64,000 nucleotides of DNA from assembly GCF_003019035.1 (NCBI RefSeq), contig NZ_CP027447.1; one strand, given 5' to 3'. Below are positions 9,807-49,178 of the stretch, one piece after another. Position numbers and translations under genes: made by a program. A model generated the notes under the pieces. The model was not told the origin of the DNA. It saw only the letters and a program-made list of their open reading frames with translations, and ran no database searches. The stretch comes from Escherichia coli. GTDB taxonomy: Bacteria; Pseudomonadota; Gammaproteobacteria; Enterobacterales; Enterobacteriaceae. Numbering within the stretch: position 1 is the stretch's first letter; every line of letters begins with the position of its first letter.

Positions 9807-10964
9807 TTAACGTGCCGGATGATGGACGGCGTTAAAACCCAGTTTACACAGCAATGATGCCGCACTGGCGTCATCACAAATTACATACAGAGATGACCAT
9901 TCACGGCGCTCAAGATAGTTTTTGCGCAGCTTATCGAACTCACCCGGTATTCCGGCGACTTTACGCAGCGGCGCGTCATCGCGGCGCACATCATACACCA
10001 AATGCACCAGCCTTTTCAGCGTCGGTTGATCGAGCGGGCCATGCAGCGTAATGCGACCAAACTCTGGCGCGGGCAGCAACGTATCCAGCGCAACGTGTTG
10101 TTCATGCCCAATAAACTTGCTATAAGCTTCAAACACTTGCGTAGTACCGCGTGCTTTACCTTCCAGGGTATAGCCTGCGATATGCGGCGTGCCGATATCC
10201 ACTTTTTTCAGCAATTCCACGTTAAGTTCCGGTTCGCCTTCCCAGACATCCAGCACTACGCTTAACTTCTGGCCTTCGTTCAGGCAGGTCAGCAGGGCGG
10301 TATTATCGACGACTGCGCCACGGCAGGCGTTAATCAGAATCGCTCCTGGTTTCAGGCTGCGGATCAGTTTTTCATCCGCCAGATGCAGCGTTTTGTACGG
10401 ACCATCTTTAAAGAGTGGCGTATGGAAAGTCAGAATATCCGCATGCTGAACTAATTCATCCAGCGAGCGGAAATCCCCCTCATCCCCACGGTCGGCGCGG
10501 GGCGGATCGCAAAGTAAGGTTTTGATCCCTAAAGCTTCCAGTCGCGCCTGTAAACGACGACCAACGTTACCAACGCCAACGATCCCCACGGTACGCTCGT
10601 GCAGTGAAAATCCATCGCGTTCGGCAAGCATCAGCAGGGAGGAGAAAACATATTCCACCACCGCAATCGCATTACAGCCAGGTGCCGCGGAAAAACCAAT
10701 TCCCGCCTGCTTTAACCACGCTTCATCGACATGGTCGGTCCCCGCGGTGGCAGTGCCAACAAATTTAATGGGTTTTCCTGCCAGCAAAGATTCATTCACT
10801 TTCGTGACCGAACGCACCATCAGCGCATCCGCGTCTGCCAGTTGAGCGACGGGGATTGGACGCCCGGGAACCGCGGTCACCTCACCCAAACGGCTAAATA
10901 AGTCGCGGGCATAAGGCATATTTTCATCAACAAGGATTTTTAACCCTTTTTCAGTCTCTGACAA
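9807..10964 (-). CDS. pdxB: Erythronate-4-phosphate dehydrogenase with a prophage-encoded N-terminal extension
   Basis: The body matches remembered PdxB ([15 protein letters not shown]...). The codon before KILVDEN is TTA. The only in-frame start is TTG at 10962-10964, 7 nt after an AGGAG on the minus strand (10972-10976). Codons 1-7 (SETEKGL) lie in phage DNA. Confidence 0.85.
10921..10940. repeat. attL core (20 bp)
   Basis: TTTTCATCAACAAGGATTTT is identical to 46884-46903. On the minus strand it encodes pdxB K-I-L-V-D-E-(N). Confidence 0.85.
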
Positions 10965-11122: not shown

Positions 11123-12127
11123 TTAATCCCCCGTGGACACTGCGTGGACACTCACGCCACCTTTCAGCGGATTAAGGGCCACCGCATCCTGCAGGTAATC
11201 CGGTGCAAAATGTGCATATGCCATTGTTTGCTGAATGGTTGCGTGGCCAAGAATCTTCTGAAGCGCAATAATGTTTCCTCCGTTCATCACAAAATGGCTG
11301 GCGAACGTATGCCGCAGCACATGTGCAGCTTGGCCTTTTGGCAAATCGGGCTTAACTCTTTTCAGCGCCAGGCAGAATTCCCGGTACTTCACCTCAAACA
11401 AGCCGCCTGTTTCTCTGGTTTTGATCGCCTCACAAACTGCCTGCGAAATTGGCACTGTTCTCTTTCGGCCATTTTTGGTTTCAAGAAACGTTACACGGTT
11501 ATGAACTATCTGTTCACCACGAAGCTTACAAGCTTCACTCCAGCGCGCCCCCGTGCTTAAACACAAAAGCGCAACACGCCAGTAATCGCCCTCCAGTGTA
11601 TCGAGCAATAGCGCCACTTCCTTCTGGGACAGGAAAGCCATTTCTCGTGGAGATACATAAAGAATAGAAATTCCCCTTACCGGATGTTCTGCATCCCAGA
11701 GGCCTATTTTCTTCAGTATGGTAAACATTCCGGATAACCGATTCATGTATCTGTTAGCAGATGACGGTTTCAATCCATCAGCTATCTTTTGAGAACGCCA
11801 CGCGATAATTTTTAGCTTATCAAGATCCACAGCCTGCATATCAGCGCCAAGCTCATTGATTATGTTGCGCAGTTGTTTTCGGTCTTCTTCCGCCTTACGC
11901 CTGTGCTGGCCGTGATACATCCACCACAACTCAAGCAAATCATTTAGCGTTCGACGATCACGGTAGCCCTGTATATATTCCCGCTTTTCAGCGTTCGCCA
12001 TGATGTAGCGTTCAGTGGCCACCGCTACCGATTTTTTGTCAAATACCTTACGCACGCGCTTTCCCTTGCGTCCGTTCGGCCTGATGTCCAGCAAATAACG
12101 ACCATCTTCGAGCTTCTTAATCGACAT
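11123..12127 (-). CDS. int: P2-type tyrosine integrase
   Basis: MSIKKLEDGRYLLDIRPNGRKGKR... aligns along its length with remembered P2 Int, including LSTGARW, HxLRHTFASH and MAYAHFAPDYL. The start is placed at MSIKK. Confidence 0.93.
   Translation of the reverse strand: MSIKKLEDGRYLLDIRPNGRKGKRVRKVFDKKSVAVATERYIMANAEKREYIQGYRDRRTLNDLLELWWMYHGQHRRKAEEDRKQLRNIINELGADMQAVDLDKLKIIAWRSQKIADGLKPSSANRYMNRLSGMFTILKKIGLWDAEHPVRGISILYVSPREMAFLSQKEVALLLDTLEGDYWRVALLCLSTGARWSEACKLRGEQIVHNRVTFLETKNGRKRTVPISQAVCEAIKTRETGGLFEVKYREFCLALKRVKPDLPKGQAAHVLRHTFASHFVMNGGNIIALQKILGHATIQQTMAYAHFAPDYLQDAVALNPLKGGVSVHAVSTGD
11133..11150. promoter_or_regulatory. Putative Int arm-type binding repeats (P' arm)
   Basis: GTGGACAC-TGC-GTGGACAC is a tandem repeat with 11-bp period inside the 3' end of int. 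A near-identical copy lies at 46820-46837. It resembles the P2 arm-site consensus TGTGGACA as I recall it. Confidence 0.55.
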
Positions 12128-12223
12128 TGCGAAGCCCTCCAATGAACCGCTCTACAATTTCTCCAGCCTCTTTCCAGCAATAATCAGACCAGACAAAAAG
12201 CAGGTCTAACCAGTTTTCTGGCC

Positions 12224-15241: not shown

Positions 15242-15334
15242 GAAACCAGAACATGCACACACAAAAAAACCGCTTGCCATGCCGCAATCAGTCAGGTTAC
15301 ATTTCCGCTGCACCTCACAAAACGGGTGCCGGGT

Positions 15335-15358
15335 TTCGCAGCCTGCTGACTACACAAG
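15335..15358 (+). promoter_or_regulatory. Upstream target-like copy (TTCGCAG ... CTACACAAG) complementary to the c4-like RNA
   Basis: TTCGCAG (15335-15341) and CTACACAAG (15350-15358) are exact complements of 15479-15485 and 15464-15472. Confidence 0.5.
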
Positions 15359-15363
15359 CGCAC

Positions 15364-15384
15364 AACCGCGCCAGCGGTTTTTTT
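15364..15384 (+). terminator. Rho-independent terminator
   Basis: Stem AACCGC/GCGGTT, loop GCCA, followed by T7. Confidence 0.65.
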
Positions 15385-15425
15385 GTGCGTACTGTATTGC
15401 CACGTTTTTTTCGCGTCAGAATTAT

Positions 15426-15506
15426 GGCGGGGCGTACGGGGCCGACTTCGGTCGGGCCGGGTTCTTGTGTAGCCGGTACTGCGAACCTCGTACGTCTCGC
15501 CACCCA
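15426..15506 (+). ncRNA. Candidate c4/CI-type antisense regulatory RNA (about 80 nt, three-way junction)
   Basis: A 14-16-bp closing stem (15426-15441 with 15486-15501) contains three G-U pairs that are valid only for a plus-strand RNA. It encloses a UUCG-tetraloop hairpin (15440-15458) and a second hairpin (GGTTC/GAACC, 15460-15487). The loop of the second hairpin carries CUUGUGUAG and CUGCGAA, which are complementary to sites upstream and downstream. The 3' tail is ACCCA (RCCA-like). No ORF. Confidence 0.5.
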
Positions 15507-15510
15507 CAGT

Positions 15511-45269: not shown

Positions 45270-45298
45270 TTGCCGGAGTAACAAAAAAGCGATAGATT
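45270..45298 (+). promoter_or_regulatory. Candidate promoter of the hok-like mRNA
   Basis: TTGCCG, 17 nt, TAGATT. The predicted start near 45305 coincides with GGGTGCC, which pairs with the 3' end of the transcript. Confidence 0.45.
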
Positions 45299-45451
45299 AC
45301 GCGCGGGTGCCTTTCGGCTGATGGTCGGAGGGAATACCCGAAGGCCAGATGTGGAAAGGCCCCGGAAAACATCTCTGTTTAACCGAGGCCCTAACATATC
45401 TACCTTAAGCAAGTGATAGGTTAGCGCCTCTCCAACAAAGGAGCAAGCGCT

Positions 45452-45592
45452 ATGTCGCAAAAATCGCTTACGGCCATCACGTTCTGCGTGACGGTAATCC
45501 TCATCATCTGGATGCTGCACGGTTCGCTGTGTGAAATACGGATGAGCTTCTGGGGAGCGGAGTTTGCGGCGTTCTTACAGTGTAAGCAGTAA
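45452..45592 (+). CDS. Hok/Gef-family type I toxin (46 aa; not in ORF track)
   Basis: MSQKSLTAITFCVTVILIIWMLHGSLCEIRMSFWGAEFAAFLQCKQ. An N-terminal TM is followed by the SLCEIR...E(F/V)AAF signature of Hok (compare R1 Hok ...[22 protein letters not shown]). SD AAGGAG. Confidence 0.75.
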   Translation: MSQKSLTAITFCVTVILIIWMLHGSLCEIRMSFWGAEFAAFLQCKQ

Positions 45593-45677
45593 GGAAACCG
45601 CGACGGGGGAGCAATCCCCCGTCAATCGGTTGCTAAGGTTGGCTGAAGTGGCACCCTATCTCTCAGACATGAACAAC

Positions 45678-45712
45678 AAACCCGCAGCGTAAAAACTGCG
45701 GGTTTTCTTTTT
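45678..45712 (+). terminator. Rho-independent terminator of the hok-like mRNA
   Basis: AAACCCGCAG-cgtaaaaa-CTGCGGGTTT followed by TCTTTTT. Confidence 0.8.
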
Positions 45713-45753: not shown

Positions 45754-45807
45754 ATAACAGATCGATGCAATAAATCCGATCGATAAAAACGATCGATTTG
45801 TTATCAT
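45754..45807 (+). promoter_or_regulatory. Triple-GATC operator-like module and weak promoter upstream of com
   Basis: ATAACAGATCGAT (45754-45766) and ATCGATTTGTTAT (45792-45804) form a 13-bp inverted repeat. ATCGATAAAAACGATCGAT lies at 45779-45797. GATC sites at 45760, 45778 and 45791. A TATCAT -10 candidate (45802-45807) has a poor -35. Confidence 0.5.
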
Positions 45808-46883: not shown

Positions 46884-46903
46884 TTTTCATCAACAAGGAT
46901 TTT
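46884..46903. repeat. attR core (20 bp)
   Basis: Identical to 10921-10940. On the minus strand it is followed upstream by GTG (46904-46906), the stranded native pdxB start codon. Confidence 0.85.

Positions 46904-47004: not shown

Positions 47005-49178
<2,174 letters not shown>

What the first reader, a model, noticed from the sequence alone, without database searches (positions are those of the whole stretch)
45270..45712. Unannotated hok-family type I toxin locus with fold-back mRNA features between ogr and the com-methylase operon
A 46-codon ORF (45452-45592) falls below the ORF-track cutoff. It encodes a TM helix followed by SLCEIR-x7-EFAAF, the Hok/Gef signature.

The surrounding roughly 410-nt unit has four features of a hok mRNA:
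- a promoter candidate (TTGCCG, 17 nt, TAGATT)
- a predicted 5' end GGGTGCCTTTCGGC that is complementary to GCTGAAGTGGCACCC near the 3' end (45643-45656), like the tac/fbi pairing of hok mRNA
- an internal 9-bp hairpin (45602-45622)
- a strong terminator (45678-45712)

I could not identify a mok-like overlapping frame or confidently place the Sok-like antisense promoter. A TTGCTC, 17 nt, TAACCT candidate on the minus strand lies around 45418-45446. The regulation may therefore differ from R1 hok/sok.
Basis: partly seen in the sequence, partly recalled or inferred. Interest (0 to 1): 0.52.

Follow-up and report, generated by a model that had tools for sequence, protein, structure and literature searches.

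The report
Known prophage hok/Sok toxin-antitoxin locus
This is an ordinary, already catalogued hok/Sok-type module (a small membrane-killing peptide held in check by an antisense RNA) at the right end of a P2-like prophage of E. coli; the one unusual point is that this subfamily has no 'mok' leader reading frame.

Summary

**What is there**
- The 46-codon ORF at 45452-45592 passes Pfam HOK_GEF (30.1 bits, cut-off 22).
- The surrounding ~350-410-nt unit has the anatomy of a hok mRNA. It has a conserved -10 box and a 5' end GGGUGCC that pairs with the 3' fbi box, or alternatively with an internal ucb box.
- It also has a covarying 3' hairpin, a terminator, and a Sok-like antisense gene built like K-12 sokC.
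- All 22 distinct homologous units I collected fold with 5'/3' end pairing. In these, 97.5% of the predicted pairs hold, against about 40% in slid controls, and 16 pairs show compensatory changes.

**Why it is not new**
- The identical DNA is annotated 'Hok/Gef family protein' (WP_000078920.1) in RefSeq.
- It occurs in 1754 of 5426 complete E. coli genomes and in phage P88.
- It belongs to 'cluster 72' of a 2025-26 Hok catalogue. A peptide identical at 45 of 46 residues is listed among the homologues tested there, and is not among the three reported as non-toxic.

**The one real departure**
- No mok-like leader ORF reads into the hok start. This holds here, and no such ORF is conserved across the subfamily.
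- How Hok translation is switched on is therefore unresolved.

Interest is low.

The parts
45270..45298 (+). Candidate hok promoter: -35 TTGCCG (45270-45275), 17-nt spacer, -10 TAGATT (45293-45298).
   Evidence: Read directly. It is below the consensus-scan threshold. The -10 position is conserved in 21 of 22 homologues, while the -35 varies. Homology with the 83%-identical Stx-phage copies begins at 45284.
45305..45318 (+). Predicted mRNA 5' end and tac element, GGGUGCCUUUCGGC.
   Evidence: Rfam RF01794 model position 1 aligns here. GGGUG is invariant in 22 homologues. It pairs with fbi in the full-length fold, and with ucb or a 5' hairpin in truncated folds.
45324..45339 (+). Partner of tac in the 5' local (metastable-type) hairpin.
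   Evidence: This is the minimum-free-energy fold of the leader alone and of 45305-45640. It corresponds to the metastable tac hairpin described for R1 in PMC9841398.
45351..45363 (+). ucb-like box (UGGAAAGGCCCC) that pairs with tac once the 3' end is removed.
   Evidence: Fold of 45305-45626. The helix 1-11 with 50-59 has 95.4% of cells paired, with compensatory changes at two pairs in 9-10 sequences.
45353..45411 (-). Sok-like antisense RNA, about 58-62 nt: a 5' single-stranded tail, then the hairpin GGGCCUCGG...CCGGGGCC, then UUU. Both ends are inferred.
   Evidence: The fold resembles annotated K-12 SokC. It aligns with the sokC strand. The hairpin stem has compensatory changes (pairs 54-89 and 56-87).
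45418..45446 (-). Candidate Sok promoter: -35 TTGCTC (45446-45441), 17-nt spacer, -10 TAACCT (45423-45418). It overlaps the hok Shine-Dalgarno region.
   Evidence: AGGTTA is kept in 20 of 22 homologues and is AGGATA in two. It sits at the position corresponding to the region upstream of the sokC start and to the sokW -10 mutations of PMC8621323. It matches only 6 of 12 consensus positions.
45422..45452 (+). Local hairpin that sequesters the hok Shine-Dalgarno GGAG (45440-45443) against CUCC (45430-45433).
   Evidence: probability unpaired about 0 in every conformer modelled. The base helix 123-127 with 148-152 is 98% paired.
45452..45592 (+). hok toxin gene, 46 aa, Hok cluster 72.
   Evidence: Pfam HOK_GEF 30.1 bits against a cut-off of 22. 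Identical CDS WP_000078920.1 in RefSeq. pN/pS 0.40, and a length of 46 codons in 20 of 22 homologues. It is 45/46 identical to peptide 72_1621 of Table S2.
45557..45572 (+). Stretch in the 3' part of the coding sequence (GCGGAGUUUGCGGCGU) that pairs with the hok start region 45452-45467.
   Evidence: A 14-bp long-range helix, 97.7% paired in 22 sequences. The stretch is nearly invariant even at synonymous sites: pS is 0.31 in codons 35-46 against 0.55 in codons 1-34.
45602..45623 (+). Conserved 9-bp G+C-rich hairpin, the likely stop for 3' exonucleolytic trimming.
   Evidence: Five of its nine pairs show compensatory changes (helix 13). An R1-type locus has a hairpin in the same place.
45642..45656 (+). 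fbi element GCUGAAGUGGCACCC, complementary to tac.
   Evidence: nucleotide 1 pairs with the last nucleotide in all 22 homologues. Homology with the Stx-phage copies ends exactly at 45656.
45678..45712 (+). Intrinsic terminator.
   Evidence: 10-bp stem, 6 G-C pairs, T run. It is present 20-45 nt after fbi in about 10 of the 15 units aligned.

Best explanation
This is a hok/Sok-family type I toxin-antitoxin module (Hok 'cluster 72', 46 aa). It is carried as accessory cargo between ogr and the right attachment site of a ~36-kb P88-like (P2-family) prophage.

**Shown by sequence and comparison**
- The locus encodes a Hok peptide that is under purifying selection.
- Its mRNA unit (45305 to 45656, or to about 45712 at the terminator) is built to close on itself by 5'/3' end pairing (tac/fbi).
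- The same 5' end can instead pair with an internal box (ucb).
- A convergent, conserved small-RNA gene with SokC-like architecture lies inside the leader.

**Inferred by analogy with R1 hok/sok and hokW/sokW**
- A weak constitutive promoter makes a stable, closed, untranslatable full-length mRNA.
- Slow 3' trimming back to the hairpin at 45602-45623 removes fbi. The 5' end then refolds onto ucb, and the leader opens to the ~60-nt antisense RNA.
- While the unstable antisense RNA is being made, it pairs with 45353-45411, and the duplex is cut by RNase III.
- When antisense RNA synthesis stops (loss of the element, transcription shut-off, or prophage induction), the trimmed mRNA is translated. 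Hok inserts into the inner membrane and kills or arrests the cell.

**Where it differs**
- Unlike R1 and hokC, translation cannot be coupled to a mok leader ORF, because there is none.
- My best guess is direct entry at the strong hok Shine-Dalgarno site (AAGGAG, 8 nt before the AUG) after refolding, possibly through a standby site that the antisense 5' tail covers.
- The biological role is not shown. I rank retention of the prophage (addiction) first, ahead of help with lysis and exclusion of other phages.
For: **Family membership**
- Pfam HOK_GEF is above its cut-off, and PHROG 251 scores 82.8 bits.
- All seven residues reported as conserved in more than 80% of Hok peptides have a counterpart: M1, C12, T14, L26, C27, E28, E37. 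I placed these by eye.

**Already annotated**
- 100% identical DNA is annotated Hok/Gef in RefSeq, and 99.5% identical DNA in phage P88.

**RNA structure**
- RF01794 matches over its full length from 45305 to the hok AUG, E 2.7e-9.
- Fold z-score is -8.6, with tac/fbi as the outer helix.
- All 22 of 22 homologues fold with end pairing, and most switch to ucb when truncated.
- Covariation: 97.5% of cells paired against 38-43% in slid controls, 16 pairs with compensatory changes, 0 of 500 shuffles reaching the score. The tac/ucb helix is 95.4% paired.

**Antisense RNA**
- The Sok-like RNA folds like SokC and aligns with it.

**Coding and layout**
- pN/pS is 0.40.
- An R1-type locus has the same 3' layout.

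**Literature**
- A peptide 45/46 identical (72_1621) is among the 45 homologues tested for toxicity, and it is not one of the three reported as non-toxic.
Against: - There are no expression, processing or toxicity data for this locus itself.
- Both promoters are poor consensus matches (8/12 and 6/12) and rest on conservation.
- The Rfam match is below the gathering score: 47 against 59 here, and 31-51 bits for seven other members of the subfamily.
- No mok ORF exists, although PMC9841398 reports that mok translation is mandatory for Hok in R1.
- In every conformer I modelled, the hok Shine-Dalgarno site stays paired. The activation step is therefore not explained.
- K-12 hokA is interrupted by an IS element, so an intact sequence does not guarantee activity.
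Confidence: 0.92

Rival explanations
1. The regulation is the same as in R1. A leader ORF that I did not recognise (a non-canonical start, or one of the short leader ORFs at 45321-45416 or 45349-45408) is translated, and its ribosome opens the hok Shine-Dalgarno hairpin. The antisense RNA then works by blocking that ORF.
For: - A Shine-Dalgarno-like GAAGG followed by ATG (+45) and GTG (+47) is kept in 12 of the 13 E. coli and related units, including E. albertii and one contig labelled Salmonella.
- The 31-codon ORF stops at 45414-45419, only about 5 nt before the anti-SD hairpin. A terminating ribosome could melt the base of that hairpin.
- Two homologues (L007, L011) do have frames that run into hok.
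Against: - The ORFs that follow these starts vary from 1 to 79 codons and change frame.
- Three homologues have ATG followed directly by a stop.
- Eight Salmonella units and the K. oxytoca unit have no ATG or GTG at that position. L024a has no ATG anywhere in its leader.
- The position of the mokC start is ATC here and is not a start codon in any of the 22.
- The hok frame has a stop within 30 nt upstream of the hok ATG in all 22; in 17 it is the TAG inside the Sok -10 complement at -30.
Confidence: 0.2
2. The module is a decaying or silent relic that no longer makes Hok, like the IS-disrupted hokA of K-12.
For: - K-12 hokA is interrupted by IS150.
- Truncated, frameshifted or stop-loss variants of this subfamily exist: P0002-P0038 and P0049-P0068, L018 and L022, which lacks tac.
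- There is no mok, and the Shine-Dalgarno site is predicted to stay closed.
Against: - In the window, every element is intact and 100% identical to copies in several unrelated strains.
- pN/pS is 0.40, and the length is fixed at 46 codons in 20 of 22.
- Compensatory changes maintain the RNA helices.
- The unit has been moved into P2-like and lambdoid prophages and into IncI1 and IncF plasmids. That is hard to explain for dead DNA.
Confidence: 0.08
3. It is the same molecular module, but its job is to help the phage lyse the cell after induction (as reported for hokW/sokW of Sp5), or to abort infection by other phages. On this view it is not there to keep the prophage in the chromosome.
For: - The only functional study of a prophage hok found that sokW disappears after mitomycin C, HokW appears before endolysin, and phage release halves without the locus.
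- Hok genes are enriched about four-fold in prophages.
- The gene sits directly after the late activator ogr in E. coli and Salmonella P2-like prophages.
Against: - hokW belongs to a different cluster (35, HokD-like) and sits in a lambdoid, SOS-inducible phage.
- The same cluster-72 unit also sits on plasmids and next to chromosomal genes such as the L31 gene, where lysis timing is irrelevant.
- The catalogue found no enrichment near defence systems (section title; discussion passage).
Confidence: 0.3
4. It is a chance short ORF with chance hairpins.
For: Nothing beyond the small size of the ORF.
Against: Profile matches, fold z-score of -8.6, covariation, and conservation in 1754 genomes.
Confidence: 0.01

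Closest known systems
Hok 'cluster 72' of Escalera-Maurer et al., bioRxiv 10.1101/2025.08.07.668861 (the RefSeq 'Hok/Gef family protein' WP_000078920.1 group; PHROG 251)
   Same: The peptide is 45/46 identical to 72_1621 and about 76% identical to 72_1589. Both are listed among the homologues cloned for toxicity tests, and neither is among the three reported non-toxic. The window's CDS is the RefSeq protein itself.
   Different: Nothing at the protein level. That study analysed only the coding sequence and explicitly left mok, Sok and the mRNA ends unannotated. The RNA anatomy given here is therefore additional detail.
hok/sok of plasmid R1 (with mok)
   Same: - A Hok-family peptide.
- A leader of about 150-175 nt.
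- tac/fbi end pairing, the tac/ucb alternative, and a metastable 5' hairpin.
- A G+C hairpin, then fbi, then a terminator-like hairpin in the 3' UTR.
- An antisense RNA of about 60 nt inside the leader.
   Different: - R1 needs translation of the 70-aa mok frame up to the hok Shine-Dalgarno site. Here no such frame exists.
- Hok is 46 aa rather than 52 aa.
- The leader scores 47 bits on RF01794, against 87 bits for an R1-type locus.
- This locus is prophage cargo, not plasmid cargo.
hokC/mokC/sokC (gef) of E. coli K-12
   Same: - The leader is the same length (hok AUG at about +150).
- The antisense gene is in the same place.
- SokC (59 nt) has the same plan: a 5' tail plus a GGCCUCGG...CCGGGGC hairpin plus a U run.
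   Different: - In hokC, mokC is an in-frame N-terminal extension that starts inside the SokC target. At the same position the window has ATC, followed by an in-frame TAG.
- hokC scores 118 bits on RF01794.
hokW/sokW of Stx2 prophage Sp5 (Takada et al. 2021, PMC8621323)
   Same: It is a prophage-borne hok with an antisense RNA complementary to the 5' UTR. It has been shown experimentally to be a type I toxin-antitoxin pair. As I read it from that paper's primers, the antisense -10 reads TAACC at the equivalent place.
   Different: HokW is 51 aa and HokD-like (cluster 35). It is too diverged in DNA to be found with this query. Some Stx phages carry a cluster-72 copy as well.
tisB/IstR-1 standby-site control (a functional analogy only, from my own knowledge)
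   Same: A structured toxin Shine-Dalgarno site, and an antisense RNA that binds well upstream of it rather than over it.
   Different: It is an unrelated toxin family with a trans-encoded antitoxin. No evidence here supports a standby site; it is a hypothesis for how a hok without mok could be controlled.

Membership tests
Hok/Gef toxin family (Pfam PF01848) | Profile match at or above the curated gathering score. | tested here: met
   30.1 bits against a cut-off of 22, E 3.7e-7, residues 7-44 on profile positions 5-42 of 42.
Hok/Gef toxin family (Pfam PF01848) | A small peptide with an N-terminal hydrophobic helix and the residues conserved in more than 80% of Hok peptides (M1, C16, T18, L30, C31, E32, E41 of the family logo). 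| tested here: met
   M1, C12, T14, L26, C27, E28 and E37 are present. The correspondence to logo positions was made by eye.
Hok cluster 72 (60% identity cluster of bioRxiv 10.1101/2025.08.07.668861) | At least 60% identity to cluster members. | tested here: met
   45/46 identical to 72_1621. Homologues found are 61-98% identical and all 46 aa.
[quoted passage not shown] | Long-range pairing of the mRNA 5' end (tac) with the 3' end (fbi). | tested here: met
   It is the outer helix of the minimum-free-energy fold here and in 22 of 22 homologues. The six core pairs are 100% paired, with three G-C to G-U changes.
[quoted passage not shown] | Alternative pairing of tac with an upstream complementary box once the 3' end is removed, plus a metastable 5' hairpin. 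| tested here: met
   Truncated folds switch to positions 50-59 or to 24-35. The helix is 95.4% paired, with compensatory changes at two pairs. This is prediction only, with no probing data.
[quoted passage not shown] | A cis-encoded antisense RNA gene (Sok) inside the leader, with its own promoter and terminator hairpin. | tested here: inconclusive
   The architecture and position match annotated sokC. The -10 complement is kept in 20 of 22. The promoter matches only 6 of 12 consensus positions, and no transcript data are available.
[quoted passage not shown] | [quoted passage not shown] | tested here: not met
   In the window, stops lie at -30, -35 and -46 in the three frames with no start after them. 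In 13 of 22 homologues no ATG-, GTG- or TTG-initiated frame reads into the hok start. In the rest, the candidate starts are not homologous.
[quoted passage not shown] | Toxicity of the peptide, and its neutralisation by the antisense RNA. | not testable with these tools
   From the literature only. A 45/46-identical peptide is among those tested and is not listed as non-toxic. Antitoxin activity has never been tested for this cluster, as far as I could find.
Rfam RF01794 (sok) | Covariance-model score at or above the gathering score of 59 bits. | tested here: not met
   47.0 bits, E 2.7e-9, full model length. Seven other subfamily members score 31-51 bits, hokC 118 bits and an R1-type locus 87 bits.
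NCBIfam NF007290 (HokA equivalog) and NF007279 (Hok subfamily) | Score at or above the curated cut-off. | tested here: not met
   35.8 against 89, and 23.6 against 73. HokA is the nearest named K-12 paralogue, but this is a separate cluster.

The most novel reading that the evidence does not exclude
The 46-aa 'cluster 72' hok loci are a widespread branch of the family, present in about a third of complete E. coli genomes and in Salmonella and Klebsiella. This branch has dispensed with the mok leader ORF that the R1 paradigm treats as mandatory.

In these loci the Sok-like RNA, which binds about 27 nt or more upstream of the hok Shine-Dalgarno site, would control Hok by a different route. Candidates are RNase III-driven decay alone, blocking of a refolding step (GAGGC 45385-45389 against GCCUC 45426-45430), or occlusion of a ribosome standby site.
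Probability: 0.4. Interest if true: 0.4.

Novelty: already known. Interest (0 to 1): 0.15.

Why it matters
**For the genome scan**
- This is a correct catch of a sub-cutoff small gene, but it adds nothing new.
- The gene is annotated in RefSeq and belongs to a catalogued Hok cluster, and a near-identical peptide has been tested for toxicity.

**What remains of modest value**
- The work gives a worked anatomy of the regulatory RNA for this cluster (promoters, tac, ucb, fbi, processing hairpin, Sok-like RNA). The recent catalogue deliberately left this unannotated.
- It also shows that the cluster lacks mok. If that holds experimentally, it would show that the textbook mok-coupling step is not universal in hok/Sok systems.
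- It would then give a very common natural locus on which to ask how an upstream-binding antisense RNA controls a toxin without a leader ORF.

Tried and rejected
**Searches that failed or gave little**
- With an alignment it returned only 6 loci from the one-genome-per-species collection. Three of those are probably contaminated assemblies.

**Leader ORFs considered as mok**
- I considered the two leader ORFs, 45321-45416 (31 aa) and 45349-45408 (19 aa), as mok equivalents.
- I rejected them because their starts, lengths and frames are not conserved.
- I considered an in-frame mokC-like extension. I rejected it because of the ATC at the mokC start position and a stop in the hok frame within 30 nt upstream of the ATG in all 22 homologues.

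**Activation mechanism**
- I tried to show by thermodynamic modelling that 3' truncation or antisense binding opens or closes the hok Shine-Dalgarno site. The site stays paired in all conformers, so the modelling neither supports nor explains activation.

**Family assignments checked**
- I checked whether the locus is hokW. It is not: hokW is cluster 35 and HokD-like.
- I checked whether it is HokA. It is the nearest model but far below the cut-off.

**Other**
- The weak Pfam hits of the 47005-48000 ORF to GemA and Gluconate_2-dh3 are a false lead. RefSeq names the gene flk, a host gene.
- My search of the held literature found no mention of this hok in P2-like phages.
Full report

Yes. The plus strand carries a 46-codon ORF at 45452-45592. 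Its product is MSQKSLTAITFCVTVILIIWMLHGSLCEIRMSFWGAEFAAFLQCKQ.
- It passes Pfam HOK_GEF (30.1 bits, cut-off 22).
- It matches PHROG 251 'MokW-like host killing' (82.8 bits).
- It stays far below NCBI's HokA and Hok-subfamily cut-offs.

- The promoter candidate is TTGCCG, 17 nt, TAGATT at 45270-45298.
- The 5' end GGGTGCCTTTCGGC is at 45305-45318.
- Its complement is at 45642-45656.
- The 9-bp hairpin is at 45602-45623.
- The terminator is at 45678-45712.

The slips are small. Two coordinates are off by one, and the motif spacing is x6 rather than x7.

This is far more than chance. The 408-nt RNA folds at -177.7 kcal/mol against -130 for shuffles (z = -8.6). The 5'/3' end pairing is the outermost helix of that fold. 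No other 25-nt stretch of the RNA pairs as well with the 5' end.

**2. What is it?**

The suggested Rfam check gives a full-length match of RF01794. It begins exactly at the predicted 5' end and ends at the hok AUG (47 bits, E 2.7e-9). That is under the gathering score of 59.

The DNA is not novel:
- It is 100% identical to stretches of several E. coli chromosomes, where the same CDS is WP_000078920.1, 'Hok/Gef family protein'.
- It is 99.5% identical to phage P88 (Peduoviridae, Xuanwuvirus), where the gene is annotated as hok/gef.
- Related copies at 73-100% identity occur in 1754 of 5426 complete E. coli genomes and on 34 plasmids. Nearly all the listed copies are annotated Hok/Gef.
- Protein relatives, almost all 46 aa, are found in E. 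coli, Shigella, Salmonella and Klebsiella oxytoca.

A 2025-26 preprint cataloguing Hok places this group in its 'cluster 72', a high-abundance cluster.
- Its Table S2 lists two representatives cloned for toxicity tests. One of them (72_1621) differs from the window peptide by a single residue, V15A.
- The text says only 19_179, 60_1482 and 69_1540 were non-toxic.

This is not hokW of prophage Sp5, which is HokD-like (cluster 35).

**3. Comparative anatomy**

I collected 22 distinct homologous units:
- P2-like and lambdoid prophages, and IncI1 and IncF plasmids;
- chromosomal sites next to the L31 gene;
- E. albertii, Salmonella and K. oxytoca.

All 22 have GGGTGC about 127-150 nt before the hok ATG and its complement 334-358 nt downstream. 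In 21 of them a -10-like hexamer ends 7 nt before it; L009 has no clear one.

Homology with the 83%-identical Stx-phage copies runs from 45284 to 45656. That is from inside the promoter to the last base of fbi, so those are the borders of the module.

Folding results:
- In all 22, the full-length fold pairs nucleotide 1 with the last nucleotide.
- After removing 30-42 nt from the 3' end, the 5' end mostly switches to positions 50-59 (ucb), or otherwise to a 5' hairpin.

On the alignment:
- The consensus structure has 97.5% of cells paired, against 38-43% when partners are slid.
- 16 pairs show compensatory changes, and 0 of 500 shuffles reach the covariation score.
- The 3' hairpin has five covarying pairs.
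- A 14-bp helix joins the hok start region to the nearly invariant 3' coding stretch GCGGAGUUUGCGGCGU.
- The tac/ucb helix is 95.4% paired, with two compensatory pairs.

The ORF is kept at 46 codons in 20 of 22, with pN/pS 0.40. An R1-type locus shows the same 3' layout: G+C hairpin, fbi, then a terminator-like hairpin.

**4. The antisense RNA**

In K-12, sokC is annotated on the strand opposite hokC. It is complementary to roughly model positions 44-106 of the leader.

The window's minus strand aligns with it. From about 45411 down to about 45353 it folds into the same plan: a 5' tail, then the hairpin GGGCCUCGG...CCGGGGCC, then UUU.

The sokW study mutated the -10 element of sokW and lost antitoxin activity, and from its primers I read that -10 as lying at the equivalent place.

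Its complement AGGTTA is kept in 20 of 22 units. By consensus it is a weak promoter (6 of 12). No transcript data were available to me.

**5. mok**

R1 needs translation of mok up to the hok Shine-Dalgarno site. In hokC, mokC is an in-frame extension that starts inside the SokC target.

Here that position reads ATC, and it is followed by an in-frame TAG inside the Sok -10 complement. All three frames stop 30-46 nt before the hok ATG, with no start codon after the stop.

Across the subfamily:
- In 13 of 22 units no ATG-, GTG- or TTG-initiated frame reads into the hok start.
- The candidate starts in the others are not homologous.
- The GAAGG-ATG-GTG motif at +34 to +50 is followed by ORFs of 1 to 79 codons. 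It is absent from eight Salmonella units and the K. oxytoca unit.

So this defining feature of the R1 paradigm is not met.

**6. Mechanism**

I commit to the hok/Sok scheme given under 'best explanation'. The RNA architecture is shown. Transcription, 3' trimming, RNase III cleavage and killing are inferred from R1 and hokW.

The activation step is unexplained:
- The Shine-Dalgarno GGAG is predicted to be paired in the full-length, truncated and antisense-blocked conformers.
- A competing helix, GAGGC with GCCUC (the one in the Rfam model), lies only about 2.3 kcal/mol above the truncated-form optimum.

**7. Context**

- A 20-bp direct repeat at 10921 and 46884 brackets about 36 kb. I compared 22500-47000, of which 78% is covered at about 95% identity to P88 and related phages.
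- The host gene flk starts at 47005.
- hok directly follows ogr in E. coli and also in Salmonella P2-like prophages.
- The same unit sits in lambdoid tail-fibre regions and on plasmids. It therefore behaves as a mobile accessory cassette.

**8. Verdict**

The finding is correct but already known. The absence of mok in this common cluster is the only point a specialist might want to follow up.

Noticed in passing
window 15310-15507 (+): Rfam matches above the gathering score to isrK (15310-15384, 64 bits) and C4 antisense RNA (15420-15507, 83 bits). They lie side by side inside the early region of the same prophage, which suggests a P1/P7-type antisense immunity element in a P2-like phage.
   Followed up: no
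window 45760-45807: Three GATCGAT motifs (GATC at 45760, 45778 and 45791) lie within 35 nt, overlapping a promoter-like site (TCGATA, 16 nt, TATCAT) just upstream of the com-methylase operon. From my own knowledge, this recalls the Dam- and OxyR-controlled mom promoter of phage Mu.
   Followed up: partly
window 10921-10940 and 46884-46903: A 20-bp direct repeat, TTTTCATCAACAAGGATTTT. These are probably attL and attR of the ~36-kb P88-like prophage. An integrase-sized ORF lies at 11123-12142 (-), and the host gene flk lies at 47005-48000.
   Followed up: partly
L020 502-654 (K-12 hokC locus); window 45305-45462: Rfam RF01794, named 'sok antitoxin', matches the hok-mRNA sense strand from the mRNA 5' end to the hok AUG. 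It does not match the strand on which sokC is annotated. In practice the model describes the hok leader.
   Followed up: partly
L024 601-741 and 1095-1235; L025 601-741 and 1091-1231; L015 1-129 and 463-603: Complete units of this hok subfamily occur as tandem duplicates about 490 nt apart, in Salmonella contigs and in one E. coli record deposited as a 1.2-Mb plasmid.
   Followed up: no
L004, L005, L008: hok loci encoding 100% (L004, L005) or 74% (L008) identical peptides, of a type otherwise seen only in enterobacteria here, appear in assemblies labelled Planococcaceae MAG, Vagococcus sp. and Xanthomonas pisi. This is most likely contamination of those assemblies.
   Followed up: no
L003 1670-1810 (Stx phage Lyz12581Vzw) and about 170 Stx-converting phage records: Many Stx2a-converting phages carry a cluster-72 hok copy (83% identical DNA) between a gene annotated 'membrane protein' and genes for hypothetical proteins. 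This is a different cluster from the published hokW/sokW of Sp5. In these copies the terminator after fbi is missing, and the next gene starts inside fbi.
   Followed up: partly
L009 1809-1995 (-): In the Salmonella diarizonae contig, a strong match to sRNA STnc540 (186 bits) lies about 100 nt downstream of the hok unit, on the opposite strand.
   Followed up: no
Literature: PMC7067206, section on prophage BTP5: The 'ogr' gene of the Salmonella P2-like prophage BTP5 is reported as expressed in all conditions tested. Because hok/Sok sits directly after ogr in related prophages, that signal might come from a neighbouring hok/Sok unit. I did not check this.
   Followed up: no
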